Below, piece by piece: positions 1-47,120 of a stretch of DNA of 64,000 bases; positions within the stretch are counted from its first letter, which is position 1, and the number at the start of each line of letters is the position of its first letter. The translations under genes were made by a program, and so were the position numbers. The notes under the pieces are model-generated. The model was given only the letters and a program-made list of their open reading frames with translations. It made no database searches and was not told the DNA's origin. Location of the stretch: contig JBHGNT010000011.1 in the NCBI GenBank assembly GCA_043228905.1, positions 5,766,001-5,830,000 of the forward strand. Direction: 5' to 3'. Origin of the DNA: Azolla caroliniana. Taxonomy: Eukaryota > Plantae > Polypodiophyta.

Positions 1-398
1 CAGGAACAAAGGCACAGAGAACGTGCCGACAGCAGTTCCGGATCATCCGGGAGCAGGGGGAGTCATGGCAGCACCGGAAGATGGCAAGAGAAGACTGCAA
101 CGGAATGTTGGTACTGTGGCAAAAAGGGCCACAGAGAAAGAGAGTGCTTGAGAAAACGCGCCGATTCGGACAAATCTGGATCCGGCAAGGCCGGCAAGGA
201 TGGCCAGCAAAGCTCGCACTACACAAAGGGATCGGGAGGATCCAAGAACGGTAATGGGCCAGCCTTGGTGATGAAGCACGAGGCGAACTCGATGAAGAAG
301 ACCACTTCCAAATCGGAGGAAGTGTGGTATGTTGATTCTCGTGCGTCGAACCACATGACGAGCCACAAAGAGTGGTTCTCCTTCTTGGAGAAACCGGA
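1..398 (+). pseudogene. copia gag C-terminus (zinc knuckle) and protease start of copy A
   Basis: CCHC-type knuckle and WYVDSRASNHMTSHKEWF; reading resumes at ~850 after the solo LTR. Confidence 0.85.
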
Positions 399-500
399 TG
401 TCAGGAACAGTACTAAGATAGAGAAGGAATTAGTACTAAACGAAGGATTAGTACTATGAGAGGTGTAGAACTTCTTCAAGAGAAGGAAGAAGTGAGCGAG

Positions 501-555
<55 letters not shown>

Positions 556-844
556 TGATAAGAAAAATATGTATAAGAGAATATACAATGGTGGCTAAAA
601 GGCTTAAGACTAGCGTTGAACCAATTTGGTTCAACATACTGCCTAGTGCCCTCTTTTATAGTGTTTTCAGGAGTAATCCTGAAGCTTCTAGAATGTTCCA
701 GAGAAATCTGGAATATACACTAATTTCCTATAATAAAATGTAAATGAAAATAATATCCTACGTATTACAATAGATGATCTAATGGTCAAGAGCTCGACCC
801 ATATAACCTAAGGTCATGGGTTCGAGTCTTGCCATATCATGACA
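399..844 (-). mobile_element. Solo LTR (446 bp) inserted in the copia protease region
   Basis: Termini TGTCA...TGACA; 5-bp TSD CCGGA at 394-398 and 845-849; TATAAAAG on the minus strand near 653-660. Confidence 0.9.
504..552. repeat. (GA)n microsatellite inside the solo LTR
   Basis: Direct reading. Confidence 0.95.
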
Positions 845-969
845 CCGGATCAACCAGGAGTAGTCGAAACCGGAGACGACACTCCTCACCCAATCGTGCA
901 CGTCGGAGAAGTCCCTTTGAGCCACGTCGGAAAGAAGGGGAAGCTGATGAATGTAGTACACGTTCCGAC

Positions 970-1323
970 TGTCACGGATCATAAGCTCAAGAGATAAGCA
1001 AAAAGATAACCAAATGGACAAGAAAGAAGATAGTATTACAGGAAAGACTCCATAACTGGTGTTGTTCACCTTGAATTCCTTCAAGGTGAACTCCTCTATT
1101 TATACTACATGGCATGCATACTTGTTGCACGCATGTGAATCTACAATAGAGCATGTAGGTATGCATGCATGTGCCAAGTGTAAATACTACAAGGGAGCAA
1201 CTATGCACATGATGCTAGCAAAATAATAAGGACCAATTACATACATAACTATGTACTAGATATCTTGGTTAACTCATAATACTAGATTATAACATGGTCG
1301 TGTCAAGAGTTTGAATCTTGACA
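970..1323 (-). repeat. 3' LTR of the Tcn1-like chromovirus
   Basis: Direct repeat of 6229-6582 with about 8 mismatches by eye; adjacent to the PPT. Confidence 0.95.
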
Positions 1324-1376
1324 TTATCCCCCCTCCTACGCCGCCTTCCCAAATCGGCCGCTGGTTTGTGGGGATA

Positions 1377-4300
1377 TCAGTGATGAAAATCTTGGACGAC
1401 CTCTAGGGCATTTTGTAAATTTGTCGATGGTTCCCACGTGGCCTCAGACATGGGGTAACCCCTCCATAGGACGAGGTATTGCAAGTGTCGACGGTGCCAA
1501 CGCGACTCAAGGATTTGGTCGACCTCGTATTCCTCCCCTGTCGTCAATTGCACAGGTGGTGGTGGTGGGGCCTGACGTCCTGGGAGTTGTGAAGCATAAT
1601 GGGGTTCGAGGAGGGAGACATGAAAAACATCGTGAATCCAGAAGTGGGATGGAAGGGCGAGCCGGAAGGCGACGGGATTGATGCACTCGATGATACGGAA
1701 TGGTCCCAACTTCTTGTAATCAAGTTTCGCACATGGACGAGTAGTAGAGATGTGTCGACGTAACCACCAGACCATGTCTCCAAGGACAAAGTGTGGAGTG
1801 GAAGATCGATGGCGATCAGCCTGCTTCTTGTATTGTTCACTAGCAAGACTAAGCTCCAAGGATAAATCATGATGTAGTTCTTCCAAAATGTGGGCGCGAT
1901 CCTCCGCCGAAGGGTTCACGGAAGTGGTAGGAAGGGAAATGTTGAAGCGAGGATGTAAACCATAGTTGGCAAAGTAGGGAGTGACGCCAGTCGATGCATG
2001 GAGAGAATTATTGTAGGCGAATTCCGCGAGCGAAAGTAAGTTGACCCAATCATCTTGTTGGTAACTAACCGAGCACCGAAGATACTACTCAAGGATTTGG
2101 TTGACACGCTCCGTTTGCCTATCAGTTTGGGGGTGATAAGCAGAGGACAACTTGACAGAGATGCCTAAAGTTTGTAGCAGGCGCTACCAGAAGTGAGAGA
2201 CAAACTGGGGTCCGCGATCCGAGATGACATCATCGGGGAATCCATGTAAGCGTACCACATTGTTGAGTAGTAGATGCACCATTCCTTCTCCGGAAATGGT
2301 TTTGGAGCATGGAGTGAAGTGAGCCATCTTCGTAAACCGAACGACAATGACCAACACCGAGTCATAGCTATTGACCAAGGGTAGATCAGTTATCATGTCC
2401 ATAGAGATAGAGGCCCAAGGACGACGAGGACATGGAAGCGGTTGTAGTAATCTGTATGGCCGATGATGAATGGCTTTGGAGCGAGCACAAACCTCACAAC
2501 TCTTTATGTATTCTTTGACCAACTTCCATGGTTGTGGCCACCAATACCCCCGAGAGATTAGCTCGAGGGTTTTCGCGACCCCGAAATTACCTGCAAGTGG
2601 GTCATCGTGGCATTTCCGCAACACCCGAGTGCGACATGGGCCCTCTAGGACATATAAGAGATGACCTCGGAACAACAAACCCTCTTGTATGGTGAAGGTG
2701 TCAAGATCCTTCCTTTTGGTCGCCTTGGAGGGGGTTTGCAGACTATCTCGAATCTCGTTGGCGAACGCATCGGTCTTGGATGCATCAGTGATTTGTTGGA
2801 GTAAAGAATCATCCTGCAACATACAAAATGCAAAAAGATGCAATTGGTCGGGTTTCAAAAAACGTGTAGATTATTGAGCATAAGCAGCATCCCCAGGGCG
2901 AAGTGAAAGGTCAGCTCGGCAAGAAAGGGCATCAACCTTCCCATGTTGGCCACCAGGTCGAAATACGATCTCAAAATCGTAGTCAGCGAGAAATGTCGAC
3001 CAACGGGCCTGCCTTCGATTCAAAGTACAAGTGGTGGAAAAATAAACTAAATTTTTATGATCATTCACTACCTGGACACGATGTTGTGCGCCGGCCAAGT
3101 AGGGTCGCCATTCTTCAAAGGTAGCAATGATAGCAGCAAGCTCCTTGTCATAAATGGGATAATTGATTTCGGATGCCGTAAATTTTCGGGAATAGTAAGC
3201 CACTGGGTGCATTAGGTTGTTGTCATCTACCTGGGATAAGATGGCGCCAATGGCAAAGTCAGAGACATCGGTTTCGACTTGGAAGGGTTTTGTGGGGTCG
3301 GCATGTAGCAGCACCAGGGCAGTGATGAATGCGTGTTTGAGTGAGTCGAACGCATTTTGCGCCTCCGAGGTCCATAAAAATGGAGTGCCTTTATGGGTGA
3401 GAGCGATAAGAGGTTGTGCTAGGGTGGAAAACCTCTTGATGAAGCGACGGTAAAAATTCGCGAAGACGAAGAAGGATTGCACATCTTTAAGTCGCCTTGG
3501 AGTCGCCCACGCCTGAATGACAGAGACCTTCTTCATATCCATGGTGATGCCAGTGGGTGAGATGATGTAGCCCATAAATTCGATCGAGGTACGGTCGAAC
3601 TCGCATTTCTCGCCTTTGGCATAAAGGCCATGCTCGCGAAGTTTGGCAAAAACTAATCGCGAAGTCGCCTTGGAGTCGCCCACGCCTGAATGACAGAGAC
3701 CTTCTTCATATCCATGGTGATGCCAGTGGGCGAGATGATGTAGCCCATAAATTCGATCGAGGTACGGTCGAACTCGCATTTCTCGCCTTTGGCATAAAGG
3801 CCATGCTCGCGAAGTTTGGCAAGAACTAATCGGACTTGGCGAGTGTGCTCCTCCATGTTTGGCGAGAAAATGAGTGGGCGAGATGATGTAGCCCATAAAT
3901 TCGATTGAGGTACGGTCGAACTCGCATTTCTCGCCTTTGGCATAAAGGCCATGCTCGCGAAGTTTGGCAAGAACTAATCGGACTTGGCGAGTGTGCTCCT
4001 CCATGTTTGGCGAGAAAATGAGAATATCATCGAGGTAAATGACAACAAAAAGATCAAGATATTCCCGGAATATATCGTTCATCATATGTTGAAAAATTGC
4101 GGGAGCGTTAGTAAGACCAAAAGGCATTACCTTGTGTTCGAAATGCCCATACTGTGTTCGAAATGCGGTTTTCCATTCATCCCCCCGCTTGATGCGTACT
4201 AGATTGTACGCTCCACGCAGATCAACTTTGGAGAAGACACGCGCAACTCGGAGCCGATCAAGGAGTTCGGGGATCAAAGGTAGCAAATAGCGGTTGCGCA

Positions 4301-5156
4301 CAGTGAGTTTGTTGAGACCTCGGTAGTTGACGCATAAGCGTAGAGAGTCGTCCTTCTTCTTCACAAATAAAATGGGAGCCCCGGCTGGTGACTTAGAAGG
4401 TTGAATAAATCCTTTCTCGAGGTTCTCATCGAGATACACACGAAGGGCCTTCAACTCTGGTGCAGACAACGCATATAGAGGACCAAAGGGTGGACACGCA
4501 CTTTCTTGAAGATCAATCGGACAGTCGTAGAGCCGGTGTTCAGGCAAACGATCAGCATTACATTTTTCAAATACGTCGGAGAAGTGTTGGTATTTTTCGG
4601 GAATAACATGGAGTGTGTTAGAAATGGCGCCACAAACAAACCCATCCTGGACCGATGATGGGGTAGTCAATTCGGAGTCGACCGTCTCCAAAGGATAGGA
4701 AACTGAATTTACCTTCATACTTTTGCACGAGCATCTTGGCTTGCTAAATGTGATCGACCGGTTGCACCAATCCACTATTGGATTGTGCGCCTCCAACCAC
4801 GTTAGTCTTAAGAAGATCGGATGTCGAGGAGATGCGATGAGGTAAAAGGCGAGCTCCTCCTGGTGTGAGCCCACCCGAAGCCCTAATGGGATTGTAGCTT
4901 GAGTAATTGCACCTGACGAGAAAACGCACCCGTCGATGGCTTCAACTGGAATGGGTTTTGAGAGGCCAACTACAGGTACGCCATGTGCTTGGGCAAACGC
5001 GATGTCGATGAAGCAAGAAGATGCCCCAGACTCAAGTAAAGCAACAAACTGAATGGAACTAGAGTTAAACGAAATCCATACCTCCAATGTGAAATTGCCT
5101 GATGGTCCGGCAATGGAACCAAGAGAATGTGGGCGACGGGAGATGTCCAGTGGCAT
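1377..5156 (-). pseudogene. gypsy pol (protease, RT, RNase H, integrase, chromodomain) with stops and an internal duplication
   Basis: ORF pieces 2871-5156 ([43 protein letters not shown]), 2184-2858 (integrase zinc-binding region, ISDRGPQF) and 1377-1919 (KLGPF GPF motif, chromodomain YEVDQIL...YLVLWRGY...TWEP). Confidence 0.93.
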
Positions 5157-5161
5157 GGCTC

Positions 5162-6178
5162 CTACTGCAACCGAACGATGTCATTTTCTGGATGTTGGGG
5201 TCCGTTAGCTCGATGGAATTGTGGGCGAGTACTCTTAGGACAATGGCGAACGACATGACCGGAGGCGCCACAATACATGCACAAGCCATTAGCCCGCCGA
5301 AATTGTCGTTCAACATCAGTCAATGGCCGAAATCGGGCTTGATCAATTTCCATGAGGATAGGAGCATCTGCCAAAGTAGGCGAGTGTGAGGATGCCTGGG
5401 GTTGTATGACCGCGGCGTGGCGTGGAAGTGAATGAGGTGGAACCCAAGTCCGGTGCTCTTCTTGGTGAAATTCGAAAAGACGATTGCCAAAATGGACTGC
5501 TTGTGAAATCGCTTGGGATAACGAGGTGGGCTCCAGAAAGTTTAAGAGAAGATTTTTGACATTGCTTCGAAGGTCGTGCCGAAAGTGATCAGCTAAAGCT
5601 TGATCATCCCAATTGACGTCGCATGCTAGTTGTCGAAATTCTAAAGCATAGACCGAAGTTGCACGCGAACCTTGTTTGAGTGCATAAATCTTGTTAAGAG
5701 TTGTACGTCGTCGGTCTATCTCTCCAAATGTGGCCTCTAACTCGGCGAGGAAGGCGGGAAAGTCCTCCAATAGAGGTGACGAGGTTTCTACCAATGGTGC
5801 AAACCAAGCTTGGGCCAGACCGGAGAGAAGGGTGCCCACAAGGCCGACTTGTCGAAGACCATCTCCATAACGTTGAGGTTGTAACCGAATGATAAGTCAA
5901 ACTTGGTTGATGAACCCTCAGAAACGCGACCTCGTTCCATCAAATTTTTCTGGGAGGCTAACCTTAGGCTCAAGAAACTGTGACGAAGCTAGGCTAGATG
6001 TTGGTAGAAGATCAGGTTCTAGGCTAGGTTGTTGTGGGAGACTAGGGTTCGGGGGTTGTGAGGATAGGGAGGTACCGACTTGAAGTTCTTGTAAAGAATT
6101 TCGAAGAGCTTCATTTTCAAGCTGTAGTTGTCGTAAGGCTACCATTATTTGGCCTAACTCACTAGTTGAGTCGGACAT
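5162..6178 (-). pseudogene. gypsy gag (Sushi/PEG10-like) with a frameshift
   Basis: PKVSLPEKFDGTRS, retrotrans_gag core (LLSGLAQAW, LKQGSR), zinc knuckle CMYCGASGHVVRHC. Confidence 0.9.
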
Positions 6179-6215: not shown

Positions 6216-6226
6216 AAGGTGAACAA
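6216..6226 (-). promoter_or_regulatory. Primer-binding site of self-priming type (TTGTTCACCTT)
   Basis: Lies 2 nt downstream of the 5' LTR; not a TGG tRNA-type PBS; exact complement of LTR sequence 6331->6321. Confidence 0.8.
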
Positions 6227-6228
6227 AC

Positions 6229-6582
6229 TATCACGGATCATAAGCTCAAGAGACAAGCAAGACAATAACCAAATGGACAAGAAAGAAGATAGTATTGAAG
6301 GAAAGACTCCATAACTGGTGTTGTTCACCTTGAATTCCTTCAAGGTGAACTCCTCTATTTATACTACATGGCATGCATACTTGTTGCACGCATGTGAATC
6401 TACAATAGAGCATGTAGGTATGCATGCATGTGCCAAGTGTAAATACTACAAGGGAGCAACTATGCACATGATGCTAGCAAAATAATAAGGACCAATTACA
6501 TACATAACTATGTACTAGATATCTTGGTTAACTCATAATACTAGATTATAACATGGTCGTGTCAAGAGTTCGAATCTTGACA
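6229..6582 (-). repeat. 5' LTR of the Tcn1-like chromovirus
   Basis: Direct repeat of 970-1323; TATAAATA at 6363->6356. Confidence 0.95.
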
Positions 6583-6587
6583 CCGAC

Positions 6588-9500
6588 AATCACGAAGAAC
6601 CTGGTGTCGGTTGAACAGATCGTCGACCAGGGGATGCAGGTGCGGTTTACGCACCATGGGTGCTTCATCGAGGAAGAGGGCCAGATTATTGCGCAAGGGC
6701 GCAAAGATGGGAGGATGTTTATCCTCGACACCAATCACGTCGACACCGCTCTGTTTGCAAAAGGACAGAAGGTCGAATCGGACATCGACCTGTGACACAA
6801 GCAGATAGGCCACGTCAATTACCGGAGGCTTCAAGACCTGCAAACGAAACAAGTTGTTTTCGGTTTGCCGAAGTTCAACGGCCGGAAGGCCCAAGTATGT
6901 GAAGCCTGCCAACTCGGGAAGCAACACTGGCTTCCATTCCCTACCGAACGTAACCGGAGTCGTAATAAGCTCGACCTTATTCATTCTGATGTGTGGGGAC
7001 CAGCACAGAATGTTAGTCTTGGCGGGAGTCGATATTTCGTCTCCTTCATCGATGACTATACGCGACACACCTGGATCTACCTCATTGAGCGGAAGAGTGA
7101 AGTCTTCGAGTGTTTCCAAAGTCTCCAAATCATGGTGGAACGGGAATCGGAGAGGAAGATCAAATGCCTGCGGTCGGATGGCGGAAAAGAATACTTTTCC
7201 GGCCAATTCAACAGTTATCTACAGCAAAAGGGAATTCGACGAGAGTTCAGCTACAGATACACACCGCAACAAAACGGTGTTGCTGAAAGGAAGAACCGAT
7301 TGCTTATTGATGCGGCAAGGGCAATGTTGGAGGAGAAGAGCATGCCCAAATTTTACTGGGCGGAGGCAGTCCGAACGGCTGTCTACATCTAGAACCGGAT
7401 CGGTGACAAGGTGTCAGCTCACGAGCTGTGTTTCAGACTCAAGCCGAATTTGAGACACCTTAAGATCTTCGGTAGCATTGCATATGTGCATGTACCGGAT
7501 GAGAAGCGGAGGAAGCTGGATGCAAAATCGGAAAAATGCATCCTAGTCGGCTATGCTCAAGAGCAAAAGGGTTATAAGTGTTATAACCCCCAGACAAAGC
7601 AGGTTAGAGTTAGTCGAGATGTCGAGTTCGATGAATCGGCATCATGGTATTCCTTACCGACTCCGACTTCCGATTCCGACCCGATGTCGGTGGATGAGGC
7701 TAGTAAGCCTGAACCAGCCCAGGTAGAGGATGATGAAGCGTGGACTCAGGATGAGAGTCCGGAATCATTCCGGTTGAGCGGGCCTAATGAGAGACTGAGT
7801 CAATCTGACCAGTCCGATGAGGAACCGGCGAGTAGTGGAGACTCCGCAGTGCACTCCCCGCGCAAGGAACCGAGGAGGCGGTTCACGCGAACAGAGAAGG
7901 GGAAGAAGAAGAAGCCGGAATTCGAAACCACCAACAATGAGTCGGATCGGTGTGCATCCGACTCCGGCAAGGAGAAAGGCGGATCTTCGGCAACAAAGAC
8001 TAAACTGGCCAAGAAGGGCCTCAAACCAGGTAACGGTGAGTTACGTCGGTCCACCCGCCAGAAGGATCCCGTCAAGCGGTACGGGTACAATGAGTACATG
8101 GCGCATCACTATGCGTACATGACTAAGGTGGCGGAAGTGCGTGAGCCGGAGAGCTACGCAAAAGCGGGAAAGGACGCCAATTGGCGTGCCGCTATGGAGG
8201 AAGAAATGCGGGCACTTGATGTCAACGAGACATGGGACCTAGTTGACCCTCCCCGTCACTGTAAACCGATCGGATGCAAGTGGGTGTACAAGGTAAAGTA
8301 CAACGCCGACGGTTCAATTAACCAGTACAAGGCCCGGCTAGTGGCGAAGGGATACGCGCAGACCCACAAAATCGACTACGACGAGACCTTCGCTCCAGTA
8401 GCGAAGATAACGACGGTTCGTGTGGTGTTGGCGGTTGTTGCAACAAGGGGTTGGCATCTTCACCAGATGGATGTGAAGAATGTGTTTCTTCAGGGTGATC
8501 TTGAAGAAGAAGTCTTTATGACTCAACCCCCCGGTTTTCAATCGGAGATGAACAAGTCGGCGGTATGCCGGCTAAAGAAGTCGTTGTACGGCCTGAAGCA
8601 AGCCCCTCGCGCTTGGAATGCGAAGATCACGCACCGGTTGCGTAAGATGGGGTTTGCGGCCTCCGACTCTTCATTGTTCATCCGGCAAGGCTCAGCCGGT
8701 CTAGTATGTATCCTGTTGTATGTTGATGATTTAGTCATCACCGGACCGGGTCTTCCAGAAGTCAACCGCATCAAGTCCCAGTTGTCGGACGCATTTGAGA
8801 TGAAGGACCTGGGGGACCTTCATTATTTTCTTGGGATCGAGGTGATCCGAACCCCCGACGGCATATTGCTCTCACAACGACATTACGTCTTGAATATGTT
8901 GTACAAGTTCGGCATGACAGAATGCCGACCTGTCTCCACACCCTTGGACCGGAACCAGAAGCTTCGTCCCAACTCCGAACCGGCCTGCAACGAGCAACAG
9001 TTCCGACAAATTGTTGGAAGCCTTATTTACTTGACTATCACGCGACCCAACATCAGCTATCTAGTCGGAATGATAAGTCAGTTCATGCAGAAGCCGACCG
9101 TGGAGCACCTTCAGTGCACGCCGCGGATACTGCGATATGTAAGCGGCATGAAGGACCAGGGCCTGTTATACCGGCGCAGTATACCCGAAGAGCTAGTCGG
9201 TTACACAGATGTCGATTGGGCCGACGATGCATCAGATCGCCGATCAACCTCCGGTTACATGCTTTCCCTATGTTGCGTGGCCGTTGCGTGGAGTAGCAAA
9301 AAGCAGCCAACAGTTGCTCTGTCGAGCACTAAGGCTGAGTATCGGGGCGCTACCATTGCCACCTGTGAAGCCATTTGGCTTCGGCGACTGCTGCAAGACC
9401 TACAGATCGAGGTACCGACCCCGATTCTGGTCTTCTACGACAACATAAGCAGCATGCAACTCGCCAAGAACCCGGTATTCCATGCTCGCACAAAGCACAT

Positions 9501-10125
9501 AGAAGTGCACTATCACTTCGTGCGTGAGCGTGTCCTGAGCGGTGAGGTCGAACTTCGGTATGTTCACACGGATTGGCAAGTGGCCGACATCTTCACCAAA
9601 CCGCTCAGATCGGACAAATTGCAGCACTTCACTGAAATGCTTGGTGTTCAACATCTCAATGTGCCACACTTGAGGGGGAAAACGGGCAAAGACACGGGCA
9701 AAGACACCGGAACGGGCAAAGGCAAAGAGACTGCCGATTGCGCCGGTGAGGGAAGAACCGACGAAGGGAGAGTCAAGAAGAAGAAAGGAGCCAAGTCGAC
9801 AAGGGAAGTCGACACGTCCGAACAAGTCAGAACAAGCGGCAGCGACGGTAGAGTCAAGAAGGACAGAGTTGACCGAAGGAAGAAGACCAAGATCCGGACA
9901 TGGTCCGATGTGGTGAAGGGCCTGGAACCAGAAGACGAATCAGGAGCAACCGATTCGGACAAGAGCTGGAACAAATCGGAGACAGTCGATTCGGTTCAAC
10001 AGACAGATTCGAAAGAACCAGATCAATTCAAGGCCAAGAGGACGAGAAGGCAGCAAAAGTCGATGCCAACACGAAGGAATCGGCGAACCGGAACGTGCCG
10101 AAGTCACAGCAGCAAGGGAGCTTAA
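6588..10125 (+). pseudogene. copia pol of copy A (integrase, RT, RNase H, charged C-terminal extension); two in-frame stops
   Basis: ORFs 6553-6795, 6865-7392 and 7411-10125 share one frame, broken by TGA at 6793 (Trp expected) and TAG at 7390 (Gln expected). Confidence 0.93.
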
Positions 10126-10317
10126 TTGGGCCTGTTGAGCAAACAAGCCGACCGAGGAGGTCGAGGTGCGCAGAACAAGAGGGGTCGCGGCAAATAGAAC
10201 CGGACCGGACGAGGAGCGCAAGCAAGGCGGAACAACGCCAGGAGAAGTCGGTTGGAAGAACCAACTGCCACAGAGGCTGACACTAGGATCCAACCTCAAG
10301 TTGAGCTTTTGGGGGAG

Positions 10318-10716
10318 TGTTGAGCGGCAAGCTCAACTGGAGCCGGATCGGCTGGATAAGCCTGAGCCGGCAAGCGAGACGGATCGGTAAGCCGGTGAGC
10401 AATCAAGCCGGCAAGCAACAGAGCCGGTTAGCCGGATCCAATCGGTAACCAGAAGCCTAGTATTAGTTTAGACTACTAGGTAGTTATAGTCTTGTAGTAA
10501 GTGTCAGATGCTCATGTGAGCATTGAAGTACGCGGTACTTTTGTCAATCCCACGAGGACTTGTATAAATAGTGCTACTGAGCACATTTGTATGTACAGAG
10601 TGTTTTTATCGTTTTTGAATATAGCTTTTATGTTCTGCTCTCTCTGTCTCTCCCGTGTACTCTGTGTATTCTCTGCTTTCTCTGTTTTCTAATGCTTCCG
10701 CAAGTAATCGTTTACA
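10318..10716 (+). repeat. 3' LTR of copia copy A
   Basis: Starts TGTTGAG after the PPT; TATAAATA at ~10563; ends ...gcttccgcaagtaatcgtttaCA, homologous to the LTR end of copy D. Confidence 0.8.
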
Positions 10717-15567: not shown

Positions 15568-18500
15568 TCATTGGAACACACGTTCAAACGCCAGTTTCCC
15601 AAACTCCAAATTTCCCACCATTGCAGAAGCGCTTAACACAGGTTGCCAAATCGTGGCGTCCTTGTCATTATTCAATGGTATCTTCTTAACCATTGCGAAA
15701 GCCTCACCTAGTCGACCCATACGGCTGAGAAGATCAATCATGCAAGTGTGGTGCTCTAATGCTGGGACAATGCCATACATTTTACTCATGCTCTCAAAGT
15801 ATGTCTGGGTCTTTTGGAATAGACCTTGTCGACTACACGCACTAAGAACCACCACGAAGGATATCGGATCTGGTCGAATGCCTTCTTCCAGCATCATCTC
15901 AAAGATTTGGAAAACATTCTCACTCTCTCCATGATGCACATACCCGGCCATTAGTGTTGTCCATGATACTACATTGCGGACATGAAGCTTGCCAAATACT
16001 TGTTGAGCTTTTCCAAGGGCGCCACATTTTGCGTACATGTCAACCAATGTGTTCCCAACAACAAGATCATCTACCAAAAATCCATGCCTCTCAATCTCAG
16101 CATGCACTTCTTCACCCTTATCTAAGGCACCCATCATGCCACAAGCCTTTAACCCACATATGTATGTGAGCGCATCTGCGAAAACCCCCTCAAACTGCAT
16201 TTGTTCAAAGCATTTCAGTGCTTCTTTACCATGCCCAGCTTGAACATATCCTGATATCAATGCAGTCCATGCAGCTATGTCTCGGCTTGGAAGGATGTCA
16301 AATACCTCCTGGGCAGCCGACAGGAAGCCGTGTTTGGCATACATATCAACCAATGTGTTCCCCACAACGGGGTCTTTTTCTAATAATGCCTGCTTCTTTA
16401 TCTCTGTATGTATCTCCTTGACCTTGTCCATAGCTCCTGTATACCCACAAGCTTTCAAGCTACAAGCAAGTGTAATAGCATTTGGGGACACACCCTCATG
16501 TTGCATCAGTTCAAAAAGCTCGAGAGCTTTCTTATTGTAGCCTTGTTCAGTGTATCCCGCAATTAGCATAGTCCATGACACCACATCTTGGATTTTGAGC
16601 TTAGCAAAGACTTTTCCTGCCATGTCAAATAACCCACATTTAATGTAGGTATCCACAAGGGTATTGCTGACAATGGGATCCCTAACCAACCCTTGCCTTT
16701 CAATCTCATCATACAGTTCCTGAACGTTTTCCAGGGCTCCTATGCTACCACAAGCTTTCAAGCAGCAAATCAGCGTGATAGCATCTGGACAAACCCCTTT
16801 CCATTGCATCTCCTTAAAACATTTCAAAGCATCCTCATGGAATCCATGATCAGTGTATCCTGCAATGAGTGCATTCCAAGGGACTACATCTTGGACTGGA
16901 ATCTTATTGAAAATTTCTTTTGCCTTTCCAAGCATGCCACATTTAGCATACATGTCAACCAAGGCACTACCAAACAAACTATTTGTTTCTAGCAAGCCCT
17001 GTCTTCTAATTTCATCATGTAGATCTTTACCCTTATCTATGTCTCCTACGCTACCACAAGCCTTCAAGCTGCATAGAAGCGTTACAGCATTCGGAGACAC
17101 ACCCATGACCTGCATTTGTTCTAAACACTTCAGTGCTTCTTTACCGTATCCATGCTCTGCATATCCTCCAATCAGTGCATTCCACAAGACTACATCTTTA
17201 ATTAGAATTCCATCAAATAATTTATGTGCTTTTTCAAGAGACCCACATTTGACATACATATCTAACAAGCTGCTGCCAATAAATAAGTTTGACTTCAACA
17301 AACTCTGGCTTTCAATTTCAGCATGTAATTCACAGCCCTTCTCTAGTGACCCTATAATTCCACAAGCTTTCAAGCTGTAAACATATGTGATAGCATTCGG
17401 GGATACTCTTTCAACTTTCATTTCTTCAAAAAAGTTTAGCGCTTCTTTACCATACCCATGTTCTACATGCCCTCCAATGATTGTGGTCCATGTGACAACA
17501 TTCCGAATCGGAAGATTATCAAACACATCTCGGGCATTCGGAAGCAAGCCACACTTTGCATACATTTCAACCAATACAGCCCCCACAAAAATATTTGTTT
17601 CCAGCAATCGATATCGATGGATCTCACCATGAATTTCTACGCCTTTTCTTGCATTTCTTGTACTGCCACAGGCTTTTAGAACTGAAACAAATGTGACAAT
17701 ATTAGGGGAGACACCCTGACCTTGCATCTTCACAAAACATTTCAGTGCCTTCTCACCACATCCACATTTAACATAGCCCGAAATTAATGCATTCCATGCA
17801 ACAACGTCTTTACTTGGAAACTTATCAAACATTTCCTGTGCCTTTGTAAGCAATCCACACTTCAGATACATGTCCACCAAAGCACTCCTTAACACAACAT
17901 ACTTCTCCACAACTCCCTGCCTTTCAAGGTCAGCATGTATTTCTATTCCCTTGTATATAGATCCTAAGACAACACACGCTTTCAAGGTGCAAAGGAATGT
18001 GACGTGATCAGGAAGAACACCTTCGAGTTGCATTTGCTCAAAGCAACATAGTGCGTCCTTACCACGCCTATGTTCGGCATATCCTCCTATCAAAGTCGTC
18101 CAAGACACAACATCTCGAATTGGAAGTTCATCAAACACTCCCTGTGCTTTAGAAATTGAGCCACATTTAGTATACATATCGACCAAAGCACTGCCAACAA
18201 AATGGCTAGTCTTGAGCAACCCAGCTCTATCAACAATCCTATGTAATTGGCTTCCTATTCCAATTTCTTTAAACTTGGCACATGCATTAAGCAACACCAA
18301 GGTAGTGGACTCCGTAGGATTATCCTTGAACAATTTCTCATACATTGCATAGGCAAGTTCTATCTTGCCAGATTTGATGTACTCAAATATGAGGGCACTC
18401 GAAGAACCCTCATTGTCAAATATGGATCTGTGGAAACCAAGATGAACACCATCCACTCTATCATGGATACAAAGAAGATGATTCTGCAATGAAATCGCAT

Positions 18501-18684
18501 AAACATCAATCCCTGTTTTGTGCATGTAGGCGTGCACCCTCAACAAGTTTGATGATGAATATCTTTCTTTGTTGCATACATACAAGATGTGTGCAATACT
18601 CTCGAAAGATGATCGGAGCCGCAGAGAACCTTCCCTTATACTCAGTATCCTTGCAACATCACTCCCTTTCCATGAACCGATCAT
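15568..18684 (-). CDS. PLS-class pentatricopeptide repeat protein with a partial E domain and no DYW (organellar RNA-editing factor type)
   Basis: Uninterrupted ORF of more than 1000 aa with eight LVDMY.KCG-type repeats in ~102-aa triplets, then HHTCMIDLLSRMG and WQPVLSAS. First ATG at 18684; an upstream exon is possible. Confidence 0.93.
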   Translation of the reverse strand: MIGSWKGSDVARILSIREGSLRLRSSFESIAHILYVCNKERYSSSNLLRVHAYMHKTGIDVYAISLQNHLLCIHDRVDGVHLGFHRSIFDNEGSSSALIFEYIKSGKIELAYAMYEKLFKDNPTESTTLVLLNACAKFKEIGIGSQLHRIVDRAGLLKTSHFVGSALVDMYTKCGSISKAQGVFDELPIRDVVSWTTLIGGYAEHRRGKDALCCFEQMQLEGVLPDHVTFLCTLKACVVLGSIYKGIEIHADLERQGVVEKYVVLRSALVDMYLKCGLLTKAQEMFDKFPSKDVVAWNALISGYVKCGCGEKALKCFVKMQGQGVSPNIVTFVSVLKACGSTRNARKGVEIHGEIHRYRLLETNIFVGAVLVEMYAKCGLLPNARDVFDNLPIRNVVTWTTIIGGHVEHGYGKEALNFFEEMKVERVSPNAITYVYSLKACGIIGSLEKGCELHAEIESQSLLKSNLFIGSSLLDMYVKCGSLEKAHKLFDGILIKDVVLWNALIGGYAEHGYGKEALKCLEQMQVMGVSPNAVTLLCSLKACGSVGDIDKGKDLHDEIRRQGLLETNSLFGSALVDMYAKCGMLGKAKEIFNKIPVQDVVPWNALIAGYTDHGFHEDALKCFKEMQWKGVCPDAITLICCLKACGSIGALENVQELYDEIERQGLVRDPIVSNTLVDTYIKCGLFDMAGKVFAKLKIQDVVSWTMLIAGYTEQGYNKKALELFELMQHEGVSPNAITLACSLKACGYTGAMDKVKEIHTEIKKQALLEKDPVVGNTLVDMYAKHGFLSAAQEVFDILPSRDIAAWTALISGYVQAGHGKEALKCFEQMQFEGVFADALTYICGLKACGMMGALDKGEEVHAEIERHGFLVDDLVVGNTLVDMYAKCGALGKAQQVFGKLHVRNVVSWTTLMAGYVHHGESENVFQIFEMMLEEGIRPDPISFVVVLSACSRQGLFQKTQTYFESMSKMYGIVPALEHHTCMIDLLSRMGRLGEAFAMVKKIPLNNDKDATIWQPVLSASAMVGNLEFGKLAFERVFQ

Positions 18685-21040
18685 ATCAATAAGATGACCT
18701 TGAAAGTATGTATTATTGATAGAAGCCAATTCCCAAAATCAACAGTATCCTTGAACTCATTGACTTCCTCACTGTAAGTTTGACTATGGACCCATCAAAT
18801 CAAGTTAATACATTTTACATAAGGAAATGCCACAGATTTCCATTAAACGTGAATCATTAGTATCCCTTTGCTGCAACTATTGGATGACTTTCATGAGTTT
18901 TCCAATGGAGCGAGTATATCATCAAGAAAAAAAACCTAAATCAAGCATTTATTGCAAGAAAATGCCACAAATATACATTGAATATGGGTTCATTAGTATC
19001 CCTTTGCACCCATAGAATGTCCTTCATGTGTTAAGCGATGGACTTATTGTATCAACAAGAAAAAATGAATAAAAACCTAAGAAAATGCCACAATTTTCCT
19101 TACAACCAATGATTAGTATTTATTTGTACCCGTGGAATGTCTTACATTGTTTAATCAATAGGCTTTACAAGGTATGCATTACAAGGAATCAGATGCTGAA
19201 AAATACATTAAATGTAAAACCCTCACAATAACGGCTCCATGAATCCCTTCCCTGAGTGGATCATTCGGATCGACACAAGCAACCTTGAAATTATGAATTA
19301 CAAACTGGGAAATTCGACAAACCTTCAATGCAGTTTTTTAACACCAATGATGCCTTTTCATGAGTTAATGGAAGGATGAACCGATAAGATTAAAGCCAGT
19401 ATCGGACAATAGAGAAATGCAACATATCTTTGGTTTTTTTCAAGCTGCAGTTCAAAAAATTTCGATTGGGGCTTCTTGAGCTCTCAGGCCTCTGGACTTT
19501 TCTGACAAAGAAGCTCTCTGAGTCTCTATGTTGTTCTCTCTCGGAGGACCCAGTTACTTCGTTTTCAGGAAAACCCAAGCATACCCCACCCCTCACTTCT
19601 TCATGGAATTCTTCAAAAACAATACCCCACCTCCCCATCCCTAATTTCCCCTTTCCATAACCTCAACAAAATCGATAACATGATCACTTACAAGTATTCG
19701 AAGAAATTGATGGCATTTACACTTAGATAGATAGAGACAAGTTATCGAAGAAATTGATAGCCTTACCATTTACATACATAGAGGCAACTTGTCGAAACAT
19801 AGGGAATTGAAAAGTGTGATGGGGAAGCAAGAGCCTTGAGATTTATAACCATTCCTCATTGTAATCTTGTCTCTCCTTAGGGAAAATAATGACCAATAAT
19901 CTATACCATAACAAGATATCAGGACCGCTTTACAATACAAATAAGTTGAGTTATACAAATGGAAAAGAGTGTACGCAATAACAGCACTACAATTTTAATA
20001 GAATTATGAAAGTCTTCATAAACAATTGGATAAAATGGTGGCTCTAACCCTTAAGGCTTTATATTCAGATTAGTATAAGAAGTAAAATAAAAAACTGAAA
20101 GCAAAATTCTGATTGGTTAATGCTCTTGATATCCTTATGTTTCTAAGTCTTTCCCAAGGTGCCCTTACATCTTGTGTTCCCAAGTATTTCAGAGATAGTC
20201 ACTACAAATTCCACAAGGATAACTACCAAATGAATGAACCCACAAGTTAATAATTAAGACGAGATCAATGAACCCAAATTATCAGTTAGATTAATAATTA
20301 CTAATTGCCTAAAACTTTGGACTTGCATTACAAATTAGGGAAAACAATTGATCACTAATCACCCAACATTTCATGAGCGACTCAACTTAAATGAAAGTTT
20401 AATGCAATTGATCAAATTAAATCGAAGCAATTACTTGAAGCATAGGAAAAAACACCAGGATGCACAGGTACATTCATTTGACAACATTCAGGTAAAAATA
20501 ACAAGAAACACATATAAAGGACAATTCGGAGTTTTTCCCGAAACCTCCCATGTTTTATAAAACTAGAATGAGTTAAATACATGGAAATATATTTGAATAG
20601 ATCATTACGTCAGTTCAAATATTATAAACTACAGAGATAAAACAGGACTCCCCAAGAAATACACATCTATTTGTCTCTTGTATTTTGTGTTATAGAAATA
20701 ACACAAAAAAAAATCCAACTACTAGTAATAACTGCTATTTGATCTTTTTCTTCCACATTACATCTACCAAAAAATGCAGCCAAAACTTAACGAAAAAATA
20801 TTCTTCTTTTAGAAATGCCCTATATCCATACTCTCCATTAGGTAATGGGTGAATCATTACATTATAATCAGTAGTGTCATTGTTAAGTCCCTCCGAATAC
20901 ATTGACTTGCACATGCATTGAGATTTTGCTGCTGTGGGTTAATTATATTTATCAATCATCTGTCTGAAACTTAACCCATTTCCAGAAACTTGGCTCGTGC
21001 CCAGGAAAGGTACATAAGTAATGAGCTACAACTTTTCACT

Positions 21041-26086: not shown

Positions 26087-27590
26087 CTAAAGGTCAAGGC
26101 ATCGCATCTTCTCTGTCGCACATATTGGCAACCGCCTCCTAGCTCGACTTGCACCTCTTTGCATGTTTCCTGTGTGTGCCTTGGAAGTGTTTGGGGAGCT
26201 GCCAATAAGATCTTGTGAAATGTTGATTGATGCTCCCCTTTTTGCACCAATTGCTTGCTTACACCCTATGGATCCACAGTCTTCTTCATTGGTTGGTTTC
26301 GGTGCACCTAGGTGATACACCAGTGTCTAACCTATTTCTTCAATGGACTCCATACATGCCAAAATTGTTGCATAGTCGAGGGATCGTAACCCTTGCCTAA
26401 GACATTGAATAGCCCCCTCAACCGTTTGTATTTTCGACTCCCATTCCTCCATTTGTGATGTTATAGGGTTTGTCTCCTCGACTGGTTCTACCTCTGTCTC
26501 CACTTCCGTCTTTGTGAAATGGTCATTGTGCATATGGGTTGCATGATCTATAAAAGGCAACAACCCACATAGATGTGGCATGTGCCTCTCAATAATCATC
26601 ATGATACCGAGTATATGCTTACATTTACTCGTAAGGTCTTGGCAATCACAATATGAACATTGGAGCGATACATTATACCATACATTCAGTTTTGTCAAGC
26701 TCAATGTTTTAAACCAATATCGGGGCTCATCCACAATATGCATTGTCGCATCATTAGTTTCATACCTCTCTAGTAGCATTTCGGCCTCTTTAAGTCTTGT
26801 TGTTTGATCCCTACAATTTGCACGTGGTGCAAATCTACCACTCTCACATATTTCTTGTCGTTGCTTGTACCATTCAATAACAGTACCCCCGATGCAAGTG
26901 CCAGTTTGACTGTCCCCGATTAAAAAATGCACAAGATCGGTAATTGATCGGTTTATCCTCCCTCTTAAGGCAGTATATTTGATAAACTGCCAATGTCTCT
27001 CCACAAGATTGGTAGTGTCAACATGTCCGTAGTTGAACATTCTACCAAATTTGGGCCACAGTTTCCTCCACACACATGTCAAGCCACACCATCCTCCTTC
27101 TATATATTGCCAAACACATGGCTTGTTTGCATATTCTACCTTTAACTCCTCACATTGGGCATTGAATGTGGATTCCGTAATGCATTGCATGAGTTGGCAC
27201 ATCCGATTATAAAGATGGCTTCTCTCAGTTGCACTTACCATTGGCAACAAGTTGTCCAACCATGCTTTTTTTGCGTGGAAGTGACACAACAAAAGTCGAC
27301 AATGTGTTTGCGACCTTTGCCCATTTGTAACTATCCAAGATAATCGGTCTGTTGCAACCACATTACTTATGGCATTATATGATGTCCAACTTTTATCGAT
27401 GACTATGGCATTTGGCCTCACATTGGGCATCCGTGCGAATATGACTCTCAAGCAAGTTTCTAAAGCTACTTGCTCATGGTTAGACCCCTTATCAGAACTA
27501 CATATCATGTACCATAATGGGATACCAACTCCCATGGCATTTGAGGCCACAACTACATATAATGGCAAGCCAAATTGGTTTGTTTTATGA
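26087..27590 (-). pseudogene. MULE DDE transposase with SWIM zinc finger (N-terminus missing or on separate exons)
   Basis: HKTNQFGLPL, IVIDKS, LLCHFH (CxxH), TTNLVERHW, SWIM CDCQDLTSKCKH; stop at 26327 followed by an in-frame continuation. Confidence 0.88.
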
Positions 27591-27594
27591 CCTG

Positions 27595-27820
27595 GATTAT
27601 GGTTAGGTGACCATATTAAAAGAGGTTGGGCGACCTGGATTATGAGGTTTGGGCAACCTGGTTGGGTGACCATATCAACATAGAATTAATTTTAAGAGGT
27701 TTGGGCAACTTGGTTGGGTCACCATAATAAAAGAGAATTAATTTTAAGAGGTTTGGGCAACCTGGTTGGGTGACCATATCAAAAGAGAATTAATTTTAAG
27801 AGGTTTGGGTAACTTGGTTT
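27595..27820. repeat. Array of GGTTGGGYRACC motifs in ~53-bp tandem units inside the MULE
   Basis: Same motif recurs at 25160-25212, ~30070 and 30340-30640. Confidence 0.85.
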
Positions 27821-33280: not shown

Positions 33281-33486
33281 GTCTGTCTGTATTTATGTTA
33301 CGCATGAATGGGAAACAAAACACAGAGAGACAGAGAGAGAGGTCTGCAGATCTGAGCCTGCCCTCTGAGATCTGATAGAGGGAGGAAAGAAGAGACAGAG
33401 ACAGAGACAGAGACATAGAAGAAGAAGAAGAAGAAGAAGGAAGAAGAAGAAGAAGAAGAAGAGAGAGGGAGGGAGAGCGACCAGAT

Positions 33487-35406
33487 ATGGCTTGCTTAGC
33501 TCTTTCCTTGCAGCCAGTCAATGGTCCAGACATTCTGTTGCAAACACGAGAATGGTTCCCTCCAGCGAGAGCTCTGATCGCCTCTTCCAAGTTCAGGGAA
33601 AAACGCTCATCTTCATCATCATCATCATCATCACCGTCGCCATCGTCGGAAGTCAGCATAGCTATGGCAGAAGGCCTGGGGGATGATGCCCTTGCGGCCT
33701 CGGGCGGCCAAGTCATCGTCGGTAAGGAAAGCAAATTTAGGGTTTTCTATCGCTTAGTTAACACGATATATGTACTCGGGATTGCGAGCGTAGAGCAACA
33801 GGGAGAAGAGATCCACGCAAATGCATTCCAATGCGCGGGTATAGTAAATCAAGCTGTGAGTGTTCTTGTGGCTGTGTGTAAAGGTGTCGACGTGACCCCT
33901 GATAAGCTTCTTCGGAAGTATACTGAGATCTACTTAGCCCTAGATATGGTCTTAAGAGGTGTTGGTGCCACTCGCTTAGCTTCGATCCTAGCGTCTATCC
34001 AGGGTGAAGGTGTACCTCACTTGGTGTTATCTGCCATTGATGCGGAGAATCGCGCACGTGGATCGGATAGTTGGAATGTTGTCAAAGGTCAAGCTACGGA
34101 GCATCTAGCCAACATTGATGTGCTCTCTTCGGCAACTTTCGAGCTTCCTGAGGAGACGATCGCTGCGGGAGATGAGGTTGTGGCTACCATCACCACCACC
34201 ACACAAACATCAGGGTCTGGTACACAAATGATGATTGAAGAAAAGAAGAATACTCCGGAAAGTGGTGATGAAGATCCGTTTGCGATGAGCGATAAGATCA
34301 ATCGCCCCGAAGAACTCGCAGGAGGGTTTAAGAAAAGCAAAGAGCCTTCAGATCTAACACTGGCTCTTGCAGATATCGAAGTACCTAAACCGACTGCCAA
34401 TATCGCTTTGAGTTTGTCTGGAGTTGAGGGTTTCGAAGGAGATTATGGAGGGCTCGACTTTGAAGAAGAAAACATTGCCTTTGGTGGTGCTTTCGAAGGA
34501 GAGGATGGACCTTTCGGTGGAGGATTGGATGCAATATCATTTGGGGCAGTGGTAGAATCTCCACTTGAGAAAGGATTAGGTGGTCTTGAAGAATTGCAAA
34601 TCGGAGGAAAATCGGTGCCCAAAGTGGCTGATGAGGCCAAAAAACCCGATTCCTCTGTGCAGGAGCTTGTAATTGATGATAAACAAGGCAAGCCGATGCT
34701 TTATCTTTCTGAGGAGGTGTTTGCTGAGTTCAAAGGCTCGAAGCTTCGGCGAATTGGCTTACAAGGAACACTCTATGTGGATTATCATGGAACCCAAGAT
34801 ACTTCTTTTGCATTCCGATTGGACGGAGGGGCAGGCATCCGAAGAGCCATTCTCCGAAACTCATCTGCAAGCTCGTTAGGAAAGAACCTCTTTCATGTCC
34901 GAACTTCGGCATTGAAAGAACCTCTACCTATCATGAGGTATCGTCTACACCCTCGGTATACCCCATTGCCTATTCGGATTCGCCTCTTGACACGCCATAG
35001 TGGCTCCTTGATGTCGTTTATGATTCAATACATTGCCAACCCTTTCTTGCCCTCTCCTCTCAAAGGGGTCACATTCATCGTGTCACTGTCATATGTTCCA
35101 TCGCTATTGAAAATGTCTCCCAAGGGTACGCTTCATAGACACAGCAAAGAAATCCGATGGCTTATTGAGGAGGTTCCTTTGCAGGGTCCTCCAGGATGCC
35201 TTCGGGCCCAAATGCCTTTAGAATTGGAGGATGAAAATGGAGATAAAAAGTCAGGCGATAGAAAGATTAGATTGGAAGCTCGAGTGGAGTTCTCCGATAA
35301 AGGGAAGACTTTATCTGGCTTATCTCTTTTACCTGGTACAGAAGGGAATGCCGATTTCTTGGTTGGAATCCATAGTTTCAAAGCTGCCGACTATTCTTGC
35401 TCGTAA
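33487..35406 (+). CDS. TML: TPLATE complex muniscin-like subunit (N-terminal longin-like region, C-terminal mu-homology domain), intronless, 639 aa
   Basis: N-terminus MACLALSLQPVNGPDILLQTREWFPPARAL, GDDALAASGGQVIVGKES and CKGVDVTPDKL match the Arabidopsis TML family from memory; acidic GG-rich linker; mu-homology-like C-terminus. Confidence 0.9.
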   Translation: MACLALSLQPVNGPDILLQTREWFPPARALIASSKFREKRSSSSSSSSSPSPSSEVSIAMAEGLGDDALAASGGQVIVGKESKFRVFYRLVNTIYVLGIASVEQQGEEIHANAFQCAGIVNQAVSVLVAVCKGVDVTPDKLLRKYTEIYLALDMVLRGVGATRLASILASIQGEGVPHLVLSAIDAENRARGSDSWNVVKGQATEHLANIDVLSSATFELPEETIAAGDEVVATITTTTQTSGSGTQMMIEEKKNTPESGDEDPFAMSDKINRPEELAGGFKKSKEPSDLTLALADIEVPKPTANIALSLSGVEGFEGDYGGLDFEEENIAFGGAFEGEDGPFGGGLDAISFGAVVESPLEKGLGGLEELQIGGKSVPKVADEAKKPDSSVQELVIDDKQGKPMLYLSEEVFAEFKGSKLRRIGLQGTLYVDYHGTQDTSFAFRLDGGAGIRRAILRNSSASSLGKNLFHVRTSALKEPLPIMRYRLHPRYTPLPIRIRLLTRHSGSLMSFMIQYIANPFLPSPLKGVTFIVSLSYVPSLLKMSPKGTLHRHSKEIRWLIEEVPLQGPPGCLRAQMPLELEDENGDKKSGDRKIRLEARVEFSDKGKTLSGLSLLPGTEGNADFLVGIHSFKAADYSCS

Positions 35407-45663: not shown

Positions 45664-46784
45664 CGGTTGCAGATCCTCCACGGGCCTCTTAAGCCATATG
45701 GCTTCGCATGTAGCGACAACCGCTCTTTGGTACTCGGCCTGAATACTCAACAATGTGACTCTTGGTTGTTTCTTGCTGCTCCATGCAATCGTTGCACTTT
45801 CCAAGGAGAAAGCGTATTCGGAAGTCGATCATCATCCATGTAGCCGACAAGTTGTTCGACGACACCTGTCCGATTGTTATGTACACATAACGTTGGTGAG
45901 GGTAGGTCACTAATATTTACATTAGTGAAGGGTATGTTCACTATTATTAAAAAGGGGACTAATGATTGGATAGAATGAATGATATGTGCATGCACTATCA
46001 TGATTTAGACAACCAATGAATAGAGAGCCTTTTAGAAAGGCACATCTATTCAAGGGGCCTAGGAAAAGGTATAAATATGAGGCTTAGATACCCTCATAGG
46101 ATGATCACGTCGGAAGGCTGCTGTCGTAGACACCGGTGGTGCGGGCTAGGCTTTCGTCTCGACGATCGTGTTTATCTCTTCCAAGGTATTAGTCATCCTA
46201 ATATCCGGCGGTATGGGACGTCGGTGGTAGGTTGGCTATGTCTAGATCATAGCTCGGGGGTGGTCGGGTGGAACGGGTTCTTCTATCCAATCTATTTTCT
46301 TCCTTTTTACTTGATTTGGTCTATTGATTAGTAATAGACTCTTAACAGTGGTATCAGAGCTTTTACTAACAATTTTTTTGTTGTTTTGATGTTTTTTGCG
46401 TGTGAGCGAGGGGGATCTAACAAGGCTCGTCATGCTCTTCTCAGGATCAAAACAACACTCTAAACCCGGTATTCTTCTTTTTTTGATCTCTTCTCTTTTT
46501 CTATTATGCGTTCTTTATGGTCGAATCAAATTGGTATTACGTTTTATTCTCTTTCTTTCTACCTCCTACTACGCTACGATTTTACTTATTATTATGCATC
46601 GGGCCGAGCGTGTTTGCACTAATCGCACACGCTCAATTCATGGCCTTTTGCATATTGCGATATATATCCCACTCTCTCCTCTCTTGAACTCTTACGATAA
46701 TAATTATTCTTGTGCATTGGGTCGAGCGTGTTTGCTCTAATCGCACACGCTTATCTCATGGCCGTTTTGCATATGATGTTGAGT

Positions 46785-47120
46785 ATACCACTCTTCCTCT
46801 CTATTGAGCCATCACTGGGCCGATTCTAAGGGATGATGTGGCCTTGACGAGGTGTATGTTGCCTACCTATGCCACTCTACTCTCTATTAAGCCATCAATT
46901 GGCCGATTCTATGGGATGTTGTGGCCTTGACAAGGTATATGTAGCTTACATATGCCACTTTCCTTTTTAATTAGCCATCAATTGGCCGATTCTAGGGGAT
47001 GATGTGGCCTTGACGAGGTATATGTCACTTACCTATGCCACTTTCCTCTTTAATTAGCCATTACTTGGCCGATTCTAGGGATATGTGGTGGTCTTGAGGA
47101 GGTGCATGTCAACTACCCTA
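46785..47120. repeat. ~83-bp tandem repeat, about 4 copies, in the long 5' UTR of the chromovirus
   Basis: Recurring gccatcaattggccgattcta...gtggccttgacgagg...tatgccact. Confidence 0.85.

What the first reader, a model, noticed from the sequence alone, without database searches (positions are those of the whole stretch)
6216..6363. Self-priming chromovirus: the PBS pairs with the predicted first 11 nt of its own transcript
Seen: two nt after the 5' LTR the minus strand reads TTGTTCACCTT (6226->6216), not a TGG tRNA PBS. Its exact complement AAGGTGAACAA lies in the LTR at 6331->6321, starting 32 nt from the first T of TATAAATA (6363) at a C|A step, where a Pol II start is expected. Established: S. 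pombe Tf1 primes reverse transcription by annealing the first 11 nt of its mRNA to the PBS, and Tcn1-clade elements are shared by fungi and non-seed plants. Inference: this plant element is tRNA-independent and uses the Tf1 mechanism with the same 11-nt length.
Basis: partly seen in the sequence, partly recalled or inferred. Interest (0 to 1): 0.8.

Follow-up and report, generated by a model that had tools for sequence, protein, structure and literature searches.

The report
Fern self-priming retrotransposon with anti-primer hairpin
This fern jumping gene has, where a tRNA would normally bind, an exact match to the predicted first 11 letters of its own RNA, so it likely primes its own copying as yeast Tf1 does (already predicted for its plant relatives), and its relatives also keep an extra matching hairpin that likely hides the spare copy of that primer.

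Summary
A broken, recent chromovirus (LTRs 6582-6229 and 1323-970, 5-nt TSD) in a fern has a PBS (6226-6216) exactly complementary to LTR 6331-6321, 32 nt below TATA; 1 of 20,000 shuffles matched. Of 78 related loci, 37 show both sites. Six primer types occur and the PBS follows each. The duplex is exactly 11 bp in 29 of 38 rows. A second stem to the U5 end also covaries. RT groups with Cryptococcus and vertebrate elements (Tf1/sushi group).

Self-priming is therefore well supported but not new: Neumann et al. 2019 predicted it for 83% of 1500 plant Tcn1 elements. The start site and cleavage remain unmapped.

Its U3 arm covaries with primer and PBS (20 of 24 representatives). Its arm lies 13 nt below TATA, so it should form only at the RNA 3' end or in read-through RNA. 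It likely masks the second primer copy. I did not find it described in nine literature searches, but the classic Tf1 papers were unavailable. This scan noted self-priming candidates elsewhere (mostly copia), none for this sequence.

The parts
6229..6582 (-). 5' LTR, 354 nt
   Evidence: direct repeat with 970-1323, 8 differences; TSD outside
6583..6587 (-). target-site duplication, upstream copy (5 nt)
   Evidence: identical to 965-969
6356..6363 (-). TATA box
   Evidence: 43 nt from its first T to the primer 3' end in 34 of 38 rows
6339..6350 (-). U3 'anti-primer' arm: 5' arm of a 12-bp hairpin (loop 6338-6335, 3' arm 6334-6323) spanning the predicted start
   Evidence: fold; beats shuffles in 20 of 24 representatives; covariation
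6321..6331 (-). predicted self-primer, nt 1-11 of the transcript
   Evidence: exact complement of the PBS; covaries with it; start site itself not mapped
6316..6320 (-). conserved 5-nt linker right after the predicted cleavage site
   Evidence: near-invariant in alignments A3 and A4; role inferred
6309..6315 (-). R strand of the second leader stem (+17 to +23)
   Evidence: pairs with 6236-6230; 94% of cells paired, 3 of 7 pairs with double changes
6230..6236 (-). U5-end strand of the second leader stem
6216..6226 (-). primer-binding site, 2 nt after the LTR, starts TTG not TGG
5162..6178 (-). gag with CCHC knuckle; two in-frame stops in this copy
   Evidence: Pfam Retrotrans_gag; stops at 5920 and 5899; relatives
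1377..5180 (-). pol (protease, RT, RNase H, integrase, chromodomain), overlapping gag in the -1 frame; three stops and an internal duplication (3489-3659 / 3662-3832)
   Evidence: chromodomain has the Y/W/Y aromatic residues (motif recalled)
1324..1337 (-). polypurine tract
970..1323 (-). 3' LTR; carries the second primer copy (1072-1062) inside the hairpin (1091-1064)
   Evidence: fold of this copy
965..969 (-). target-site duplication, downstream copy

Best explanation
This is a broken copy of a high-copy fern chromovirus of the Tf1/sushi group whose PBS is complementary to an 11-nt LTR segment 32 nt below TATA, so the family likely primes reverse transcription with its own first 11 nt, and a covarying U3 hairpin arm likely masks the second copy of that primer at the RNA 3' end. 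Shown here: the complementarity, its covariation, the fixed TATA spacing, a second covarying stem between +17..+23 and the U5 end, and the covarying U3/R hairpin. Inferred from Tf1: transcription starts at 6331, the 5' end folds onto the PBS, RNase H cuts after base 11, and the 11-mer primes minus-strand synthesis. Inferred here: the arm starts 13 nt below TATA, so it is absent from correctly started 5' ends but present in the 3' LTR copy and in read-through RNA. There it would keep the spare primer copy from pairing with the PBS. I put self-priming at about 0.9, the hairpin being a selected structure at about 0.9, and masking as its main role at about 0.5.
For: Chance match in 1 of 20,000 shuffles. 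In 38 rows (37 of 78 loci plus the window) the uninterrupted duplex is 11 bp in 29, 12 in 3 and 10 in 1. Primer:PBS on 19 representatives: 99% paired, 7 of 11 pairs with double changes; the whole structure exceeds all 500 shuffles and all slid registers. One primer change (nt 5) needs three steps on the Gag tree and appears in primer, PBS and arm together. Hairpin: 95% paired, 4 of 12 pairs with double changes, two of them wholly upstream of the primer. Each arm folds best with its own primer type in 8 of 8 cross tests. There are five G.U cells on the sense strand against one A.C. The TATA-hairpin-primer block is the main alignable part of the LTR in six more distant relatives. RT tree: 99% support for a group with Cryptococcus and vertebrate elements. 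Literature passages: Tf1 mechanism (PMC7175516); Tcn1 prediction (PMC6317226).
Against: No start site was mapped: all runs laid were contigs, and the one recorded RNA run gave a single divergent contig. Five of 38 rows have a broken duplex (L022, L024, L047, L052, L068). The third duplex of the Tf1 'pretzel' reached p<0.05 in only 1 of 20. The hairpin is absent in 4 of 24 representatives (L053, L075, L070, L074), two of which (L053, L070) have a 10-12 bp primer:PBS match, so it is not required. With the arm attached to the leader, the hairpin outcompetes the PBS in only 19 of 34 arm-bearing rows. Novikova 2010 saw no self-priming signal in SM-Tcn1. The shuffle controls ignore relatedness, and many loci are near-copies or collapsed contigs.
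Confidence: 0.8

Rival explanations
1. Self-priming is right, but the U3 arm is a docking site rather than a mask. The 11-nt RNA primer left on strong-stop cDNA would pair with the arm next to the 3' R, open the hairpin and help the first strand transfer.
For: The arm is complementary to the primer and sits directly upstream of the R landing site. It covaries with the primer.
Against: Pairs 23-32, 24-31 and 25-30 of alignment A3 lie outside the primer yet are kept (two with double changes), which fits an intramolecular hairpin rather than primer docking. Retention of the primer on cDNA is recalled from Tf1 work and was not read here.
Confidence: 0.15
2. Self-priming is right, but the hairpin serves 3'-end formation, RNA stability or packaging, or acts on DNA at the promoter. 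It covaries only because its 3' arm happens to be the primer.
For: No canonical AATAAA lies in the LTR, so another 3'-end signal is plausible. Any hairpin built on the primer must track primer changes. Masking is thermodynamically incomplete in 15 of 34 rows.
Against: It does not explain why the hairpin always uses the primer as its 3' arm, also in L059 with a different primer and register. G.U pairs favour the sense strand, 5 against 1 (few independent events).
Confidence: 0.25
3. The element is primed by a tRNA, a tRNA half or another host RNA, and the LTR match is only a structural stem of the leader.
For: No start site or primer was observed directly. I could not scan the PBS against fern tRNAs, because no genome was held and no tRNA was found in the window or loci.
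Against: The PBS begins TTG, so it cannot pair with a CCA end. Six PBS types each track their own LTR, and the duplex stops sharply at the position 32 nt below TATA.
Confidence: 0.05
4. Transcription starts further upstream, the hairpin is a TAR-like 5' structure, and the primer is released by a different cut.
For: RNAs starting at 6350 or above fold into the hairpin with probability 0.99.
Against: The arm begins only 13 nt below the conserved TATA, too close for a Pol II start (own knowledge: about 25-35 nt). The duplex boundary coincides with TATA+32.
Confidence: 0.07

Closest known systems
Plant Tcn1 clade of chromoviruses (REXdb; Neumann et al. 2019, PMC6317226; Novikova et al. 2010, PMC2864245)
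   Same: No tRNA PBS, an LTR-complementary tract of 10 nt or more within 0-5 nt of the LTR, 5-bp TSD, size in range (5.6 kb), overlapping gag and pol, chromodomain with aromatic residues, RT 66% identical to a Cryptococcus element.
   Different: The host here is a fern; those papers report moss and club-moss, and Novikova's PCR survey found none in ferns. The passages I saw give no start-site geometry, no covariation and no U3 hairpin.
Tf1/Tf2 of Schizosaccharomyces pombe and the Tf1/sushi group (Tj1, Tosmo1-3, Tcry1, sushi-ichi, fungal Tcn1)
   Same: [quoted passage not shown]
   Different: Only two of the three 'pretzel' duplexes are supported here. The mechanism is proven in Tf1 and only inferred here. 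No U3 arm against the primer is mentioned in the passages read.
TAR lineage of plant Ty1/copia (Houba, Osr-1), predicted self-priming
   Same: PBS complementary to the element's own LTR (89% of 203 elements).
   Different: Different superfamily; this element is a Ty3/gypsy chromovirus.

Membership tests
Ty3/gypsy chromovirus | domain order gag-PR-RT-RH-INT-chromodomain between LTRs, with TSD and PPT | tested here: met
Tf1/sushi group | RT groups with fungal and vertebrate chromoviruses rather than seed-plant clades | tested here: met
   quick tree of 50 rows, 197 columns, SH-aLRT 99, midpoint root; references are database hits named only by organism
Tf1/sushi group | PBS complementary to own LTR, no tRNA 3'-end match | tested here: met
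Tf1/sushi group | primer is the true 5' end of the transcript | not testable with these tools
   only contig runs were available; the fixed TATA spacing is indirect support
Tf1/sushi group | [quoted passage not shown] | not testable with these tools
   needs biochemistry
Tf1/sushi group | three-duplex 'pretzel' leader | tested here: inconclusive
   central duplex and U5-end stem covary; third duplex p<0.05 in 1 of 20
Tcn1 clade (REXdb) | placement with REXdb Tcn1 references by RT-RH-INT phylogeny | not testable with these tools
   reference files too large to read; the Cryptococcus hit P0079 is not named Tcn1, and its branch is unresolved against the fern group
Tcn1 clade (REXdb) | group I chromodomain with aromatic cage; overlapping gag/pol; 5-bp TSD | tested here: met
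   cage residues judged by eye from a recalled motif
tRNA-primed plant chromoviruses (Reina, Tekay, Galadriel, CRM) | PBS starting TGG, complementary to a tRNA 3' end | tested here: not met
   the PBS starts TTG or a mutated form in all 38 rows

The most novel reading that the evidence does not exclude
Fern Tf1/sushi-type retrotransposons carry a built-in anti-primer: a U3 arm that co-evolves with the self-primer and the PBS. It latches the primer shut at the RNA 3' end and in read-through transcripts, so that only correctly started 5' ends can prime. This would be an undescribed control element of self-priming and a three-way covarying RNA switch, in a plant group where the clade had been reported absent.
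Probability: 0.45. Interest if true: 0.65.

Novelty: new variant of a known kind. Interest (0 to 1): 0.42.

Why it matters
Self-priming in plants has been a sequence-match prediction. The compensatory changes and fixed TATA spacing here add comparative support and give an exact, testable start site and cut site. Every self-priming element carries a second copy of its primer in the 3' LTR, and how that copy is kept from the PBS is a natural question. The covarying U3 hairpin offers a specific answer that can be tested on short RNAs in vitro. Abundant Tcn1-like families in a fern also bear on the horizontal-transfer versus retention debate for this clade.

Tried and rejected
No whole genome was held, so there was no genome-wide copy survey or tRNA scan; ARAGORN found no tRNA in the window or loci. 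Viral contigs gave no relative. A plasmid blastn gave nothing. Rfam gave no match at E up to 1. PDB sequence search gave Ty3 RT as best hit and no Tf1-group reference. The third pretzel duplex was not supported.

Read laying used contigs only and cannot show a start. No variant rows were listed in the PBS, primer or arm, but the tables are not exhaustive (omitted variants that one search listed), so I do not count this. The summed depth peak over 6321-6350 is only a hint of conservation. X16 is probably DNA, and X19 gave one divergent contig.

Rows dropped: 41 of 78 loci lacked one or both anchors (too little upstream DNA, truncated or rearranged 5' ends, or no detectable PBS). Alignment A3 (19 rows) held only the close arm-bearing group and left out L053, L059, L070, L074 and L075. 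Alignment A4 (19 rows) left out near-duplicates and the broken-duplex rows L022, L024, L052 and L068. The Gag tree is the quick tree; the careful search did not finish. PMC1940013 held no mention of priming.

Full report
Observation. The element lies on the minus strand between two 354-nt LTRs, 6582-6229 and 1323-970, which differ at 8 sites (K2P 0.023), with a 5-nt TSD and a purine tract before the 3' LTR. Two bases after the 5' LTR, 6226-6216 is the exact complement of 6331-6321, and TATAAATA starts 32 nt upstream of 6331. One of 20,000 dinucleotide shuffles of the LTR held such an 11-nt complement. Pfam gives gag, protease, RT, RNase H, integrase and chromodomain in Ty3/gypsy order. The copy is broken: two stops in gag, three in pol and an internal duplication. 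It is nested in a copia element. A host gene in the window has its best named hits in Adiantum and Ceratopteris at 63-68%, against 53% or less for named hits from other plant groups, so the host is a fern. Sequencing runs show a high-copy family in several related organisms.

Relatives. A Gag alignment fetched 78 loci from metagenome contigs. Thirty-seven carry both the LTR 11-mer anchor and the LTR-end/PBS anchor, which gives 38 rows with the window; the other 41 lack upstream DNA or a detectable site. The first T of TATA lies 43 nt from the primer's 3' end in 34 of 38 rows (42 in one, 45 in three). The uninterrupted duplex is 11 bp in 29 rows, 12 in 3, 10 in 1, and broken by mismatches in 5. 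Six primer types occur, at Gag identities down to 46%, and the PBS follows each. On 19 representatives chosen without near-duplicates and without four broken rows, 99% of primer:PBS cells pair and 7 of 11 pairs change on both sides. A second stem, +17..+23 with the U5 end, pairs in 94% of cells with 3 of 7 double changes. The whole structure exceeds all 500 shuffles and all slid registers; these shuffles ignore relatedness. On a quick Gag tree one primer variant needs three steps, forced by starred branches, though these may be gains or losses. A third 'pretzel' duplex was significant in only 1 of 20.

The missed hairpin. Bases 6350-6339 pair perfectly with 6334-6323, covering nine primer bases. 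RNA starting at 6331 pairs primer with PBS at probability near 1; RNA starting at 6350 or above folds into the hairpin (0.99; primer:PBS 0.09 with a shorter leader). The hairpin beats shuffles of the upstream 24 nt in 20 of 24 representatives. These are all 19 of the close group plus L059, which has a different primer and register; it is absent in L053, L075, L070 and L074. In the 19 close rows 95% of cells pair and 4 of 12 pairs change on both sides, two of them wholly upstream of the primer. Each arm folds best with its own primer type in an 8 by 8 cross test. G.U on the sense strand occurs in five cells against one A.C. In six more distant relatives the TATA-to-stem block, LTR positions about 219-280, is the main part that still aligns to this LTR. 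The arm begins 13 nt below TATA, too close to be in a transcript started from that TATA (own knowledge of Pol II spacing). It should therefore exist only in the 3' LTR copy of the RNA and in read-through RNA.

Mechanism. From Tf1 (passages of PMC7175516, and PMC5341516) I infer a start at 6331, pairing of nt 1-11 with the PBS, RNase H cleavage after base 11, and priming. The 3' R holds a second copy of the 11-mer and of the stem strand. If that copy paired with the PBS and were cut, the RNA would lose its strand-transfer landing site. I propose that the U3 arm masks it, and also disables read-through transcripts. Against this: the arm is missing in some relatives with a good primer:PBS match, and in a local competition model the hairpin wins in only 19 of 34 arm-bearing rows. 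Rivals are primer docking for strand transfer and a role in 3'-end formation. None of these steps is shown.

Comparison with what is known. RT (197 columns, 50 rows, quick tree) groups at 99% with a Cryptococcus element (66% identity) and vertebrate elements, apart from Tanacetum elements and the window's own tRNA-type chromovirus. This fits the Tf1/sushi group. Strict Tcn1 membership could not be tested, since the REXdb files were too large to read; those files list per-element self-primers and may bear on novelty. Neumann et al. 2019 (PMC6317226; passages and supplementary file 5 read) already predict self-priming for 83% of 1500 plant Tcn1 elements, from moss and club-moss. Novikova et al. 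2010 (PMC2864245; passages) found no Tcn1-like clones in ferns and no self-priming signal in SM-Tcn1. The pretzel structure is described in passages of 10.1101/2022.12.06.519325 and PMC10085805. I also read passages of PMC3601003, PMC8282616, PMC13469084, PMC3350952 and PMC4600332. [quoted passage not shown]

Not found in print, within limits. Nine searches gave no description of a U3 arm complementary to a self-primer, and no report of Tcn1 in fern genomes (none; none of the 40 of 294 listed held the word Tcn1). The library lacks most subscription papers, and fern genome supplements may list Tcn1. Earlier notes of this scan describe self-priming candidates in other genomes, mostly copia, and none for this sequence; they did not change my reading.

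Verdict. The additions are comparative support, the fern host and a covarying anti-primer hairpin of unproven role. Novelty: new variant of a known kind. Interest 0.42.

Noticed in passing
window 1-969 and 6583-10673, + strand: The element is inserted into a copia element: integrase and RVT_2 domains on the right, a Pol beta-barrel fragment on the left. Contig loose ends at 6583 resemble the empty site.
   Followed up: partly
window 45875-52985, + strand: A second, young chromovirus (LTRs about 473 nt, 99% identical) with a TGG-type PBS, recalled as tRNA-Met type; it served as the negative control.
   Followed up: partly
window 6316-6320; L001-L075: The five bases after the primer are nearly invariant down to 46% Gag identity, as are the last three primer bases. 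Together they resemble a tRNA CCA end and may be the RNase H recognition context.
   Followed up: partly
L059:4271-4470; L070; L074; L061, L063-L066, L069: A separate, more distant clade has a different PBS with a 12-bp LTR match in L059 and L070. Only L059 has a U3 arm, in a shifted register, which hints at an independent gain or loss.
   Followed up: partly
L052, L053, L068, L075 and related loci: A distant group has a long (about 0.4-1 kb) leader between PBS and gag, a 10-bp primer match in L053, the same TATA spacing and no U3 arm.
   Followed up: partly
L026, L033, L045, L047: Close relatives carry long GC-rich repeated leaders upstream of gag.
   Followed up: no
window 33379-35403 (+), 15571-18738 (-), 26330-27685 (-): Host genes or fragments: a mu-homology-domain protein in one open frame, a PPR protein and a MULE transposase.
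   Followed up: partly
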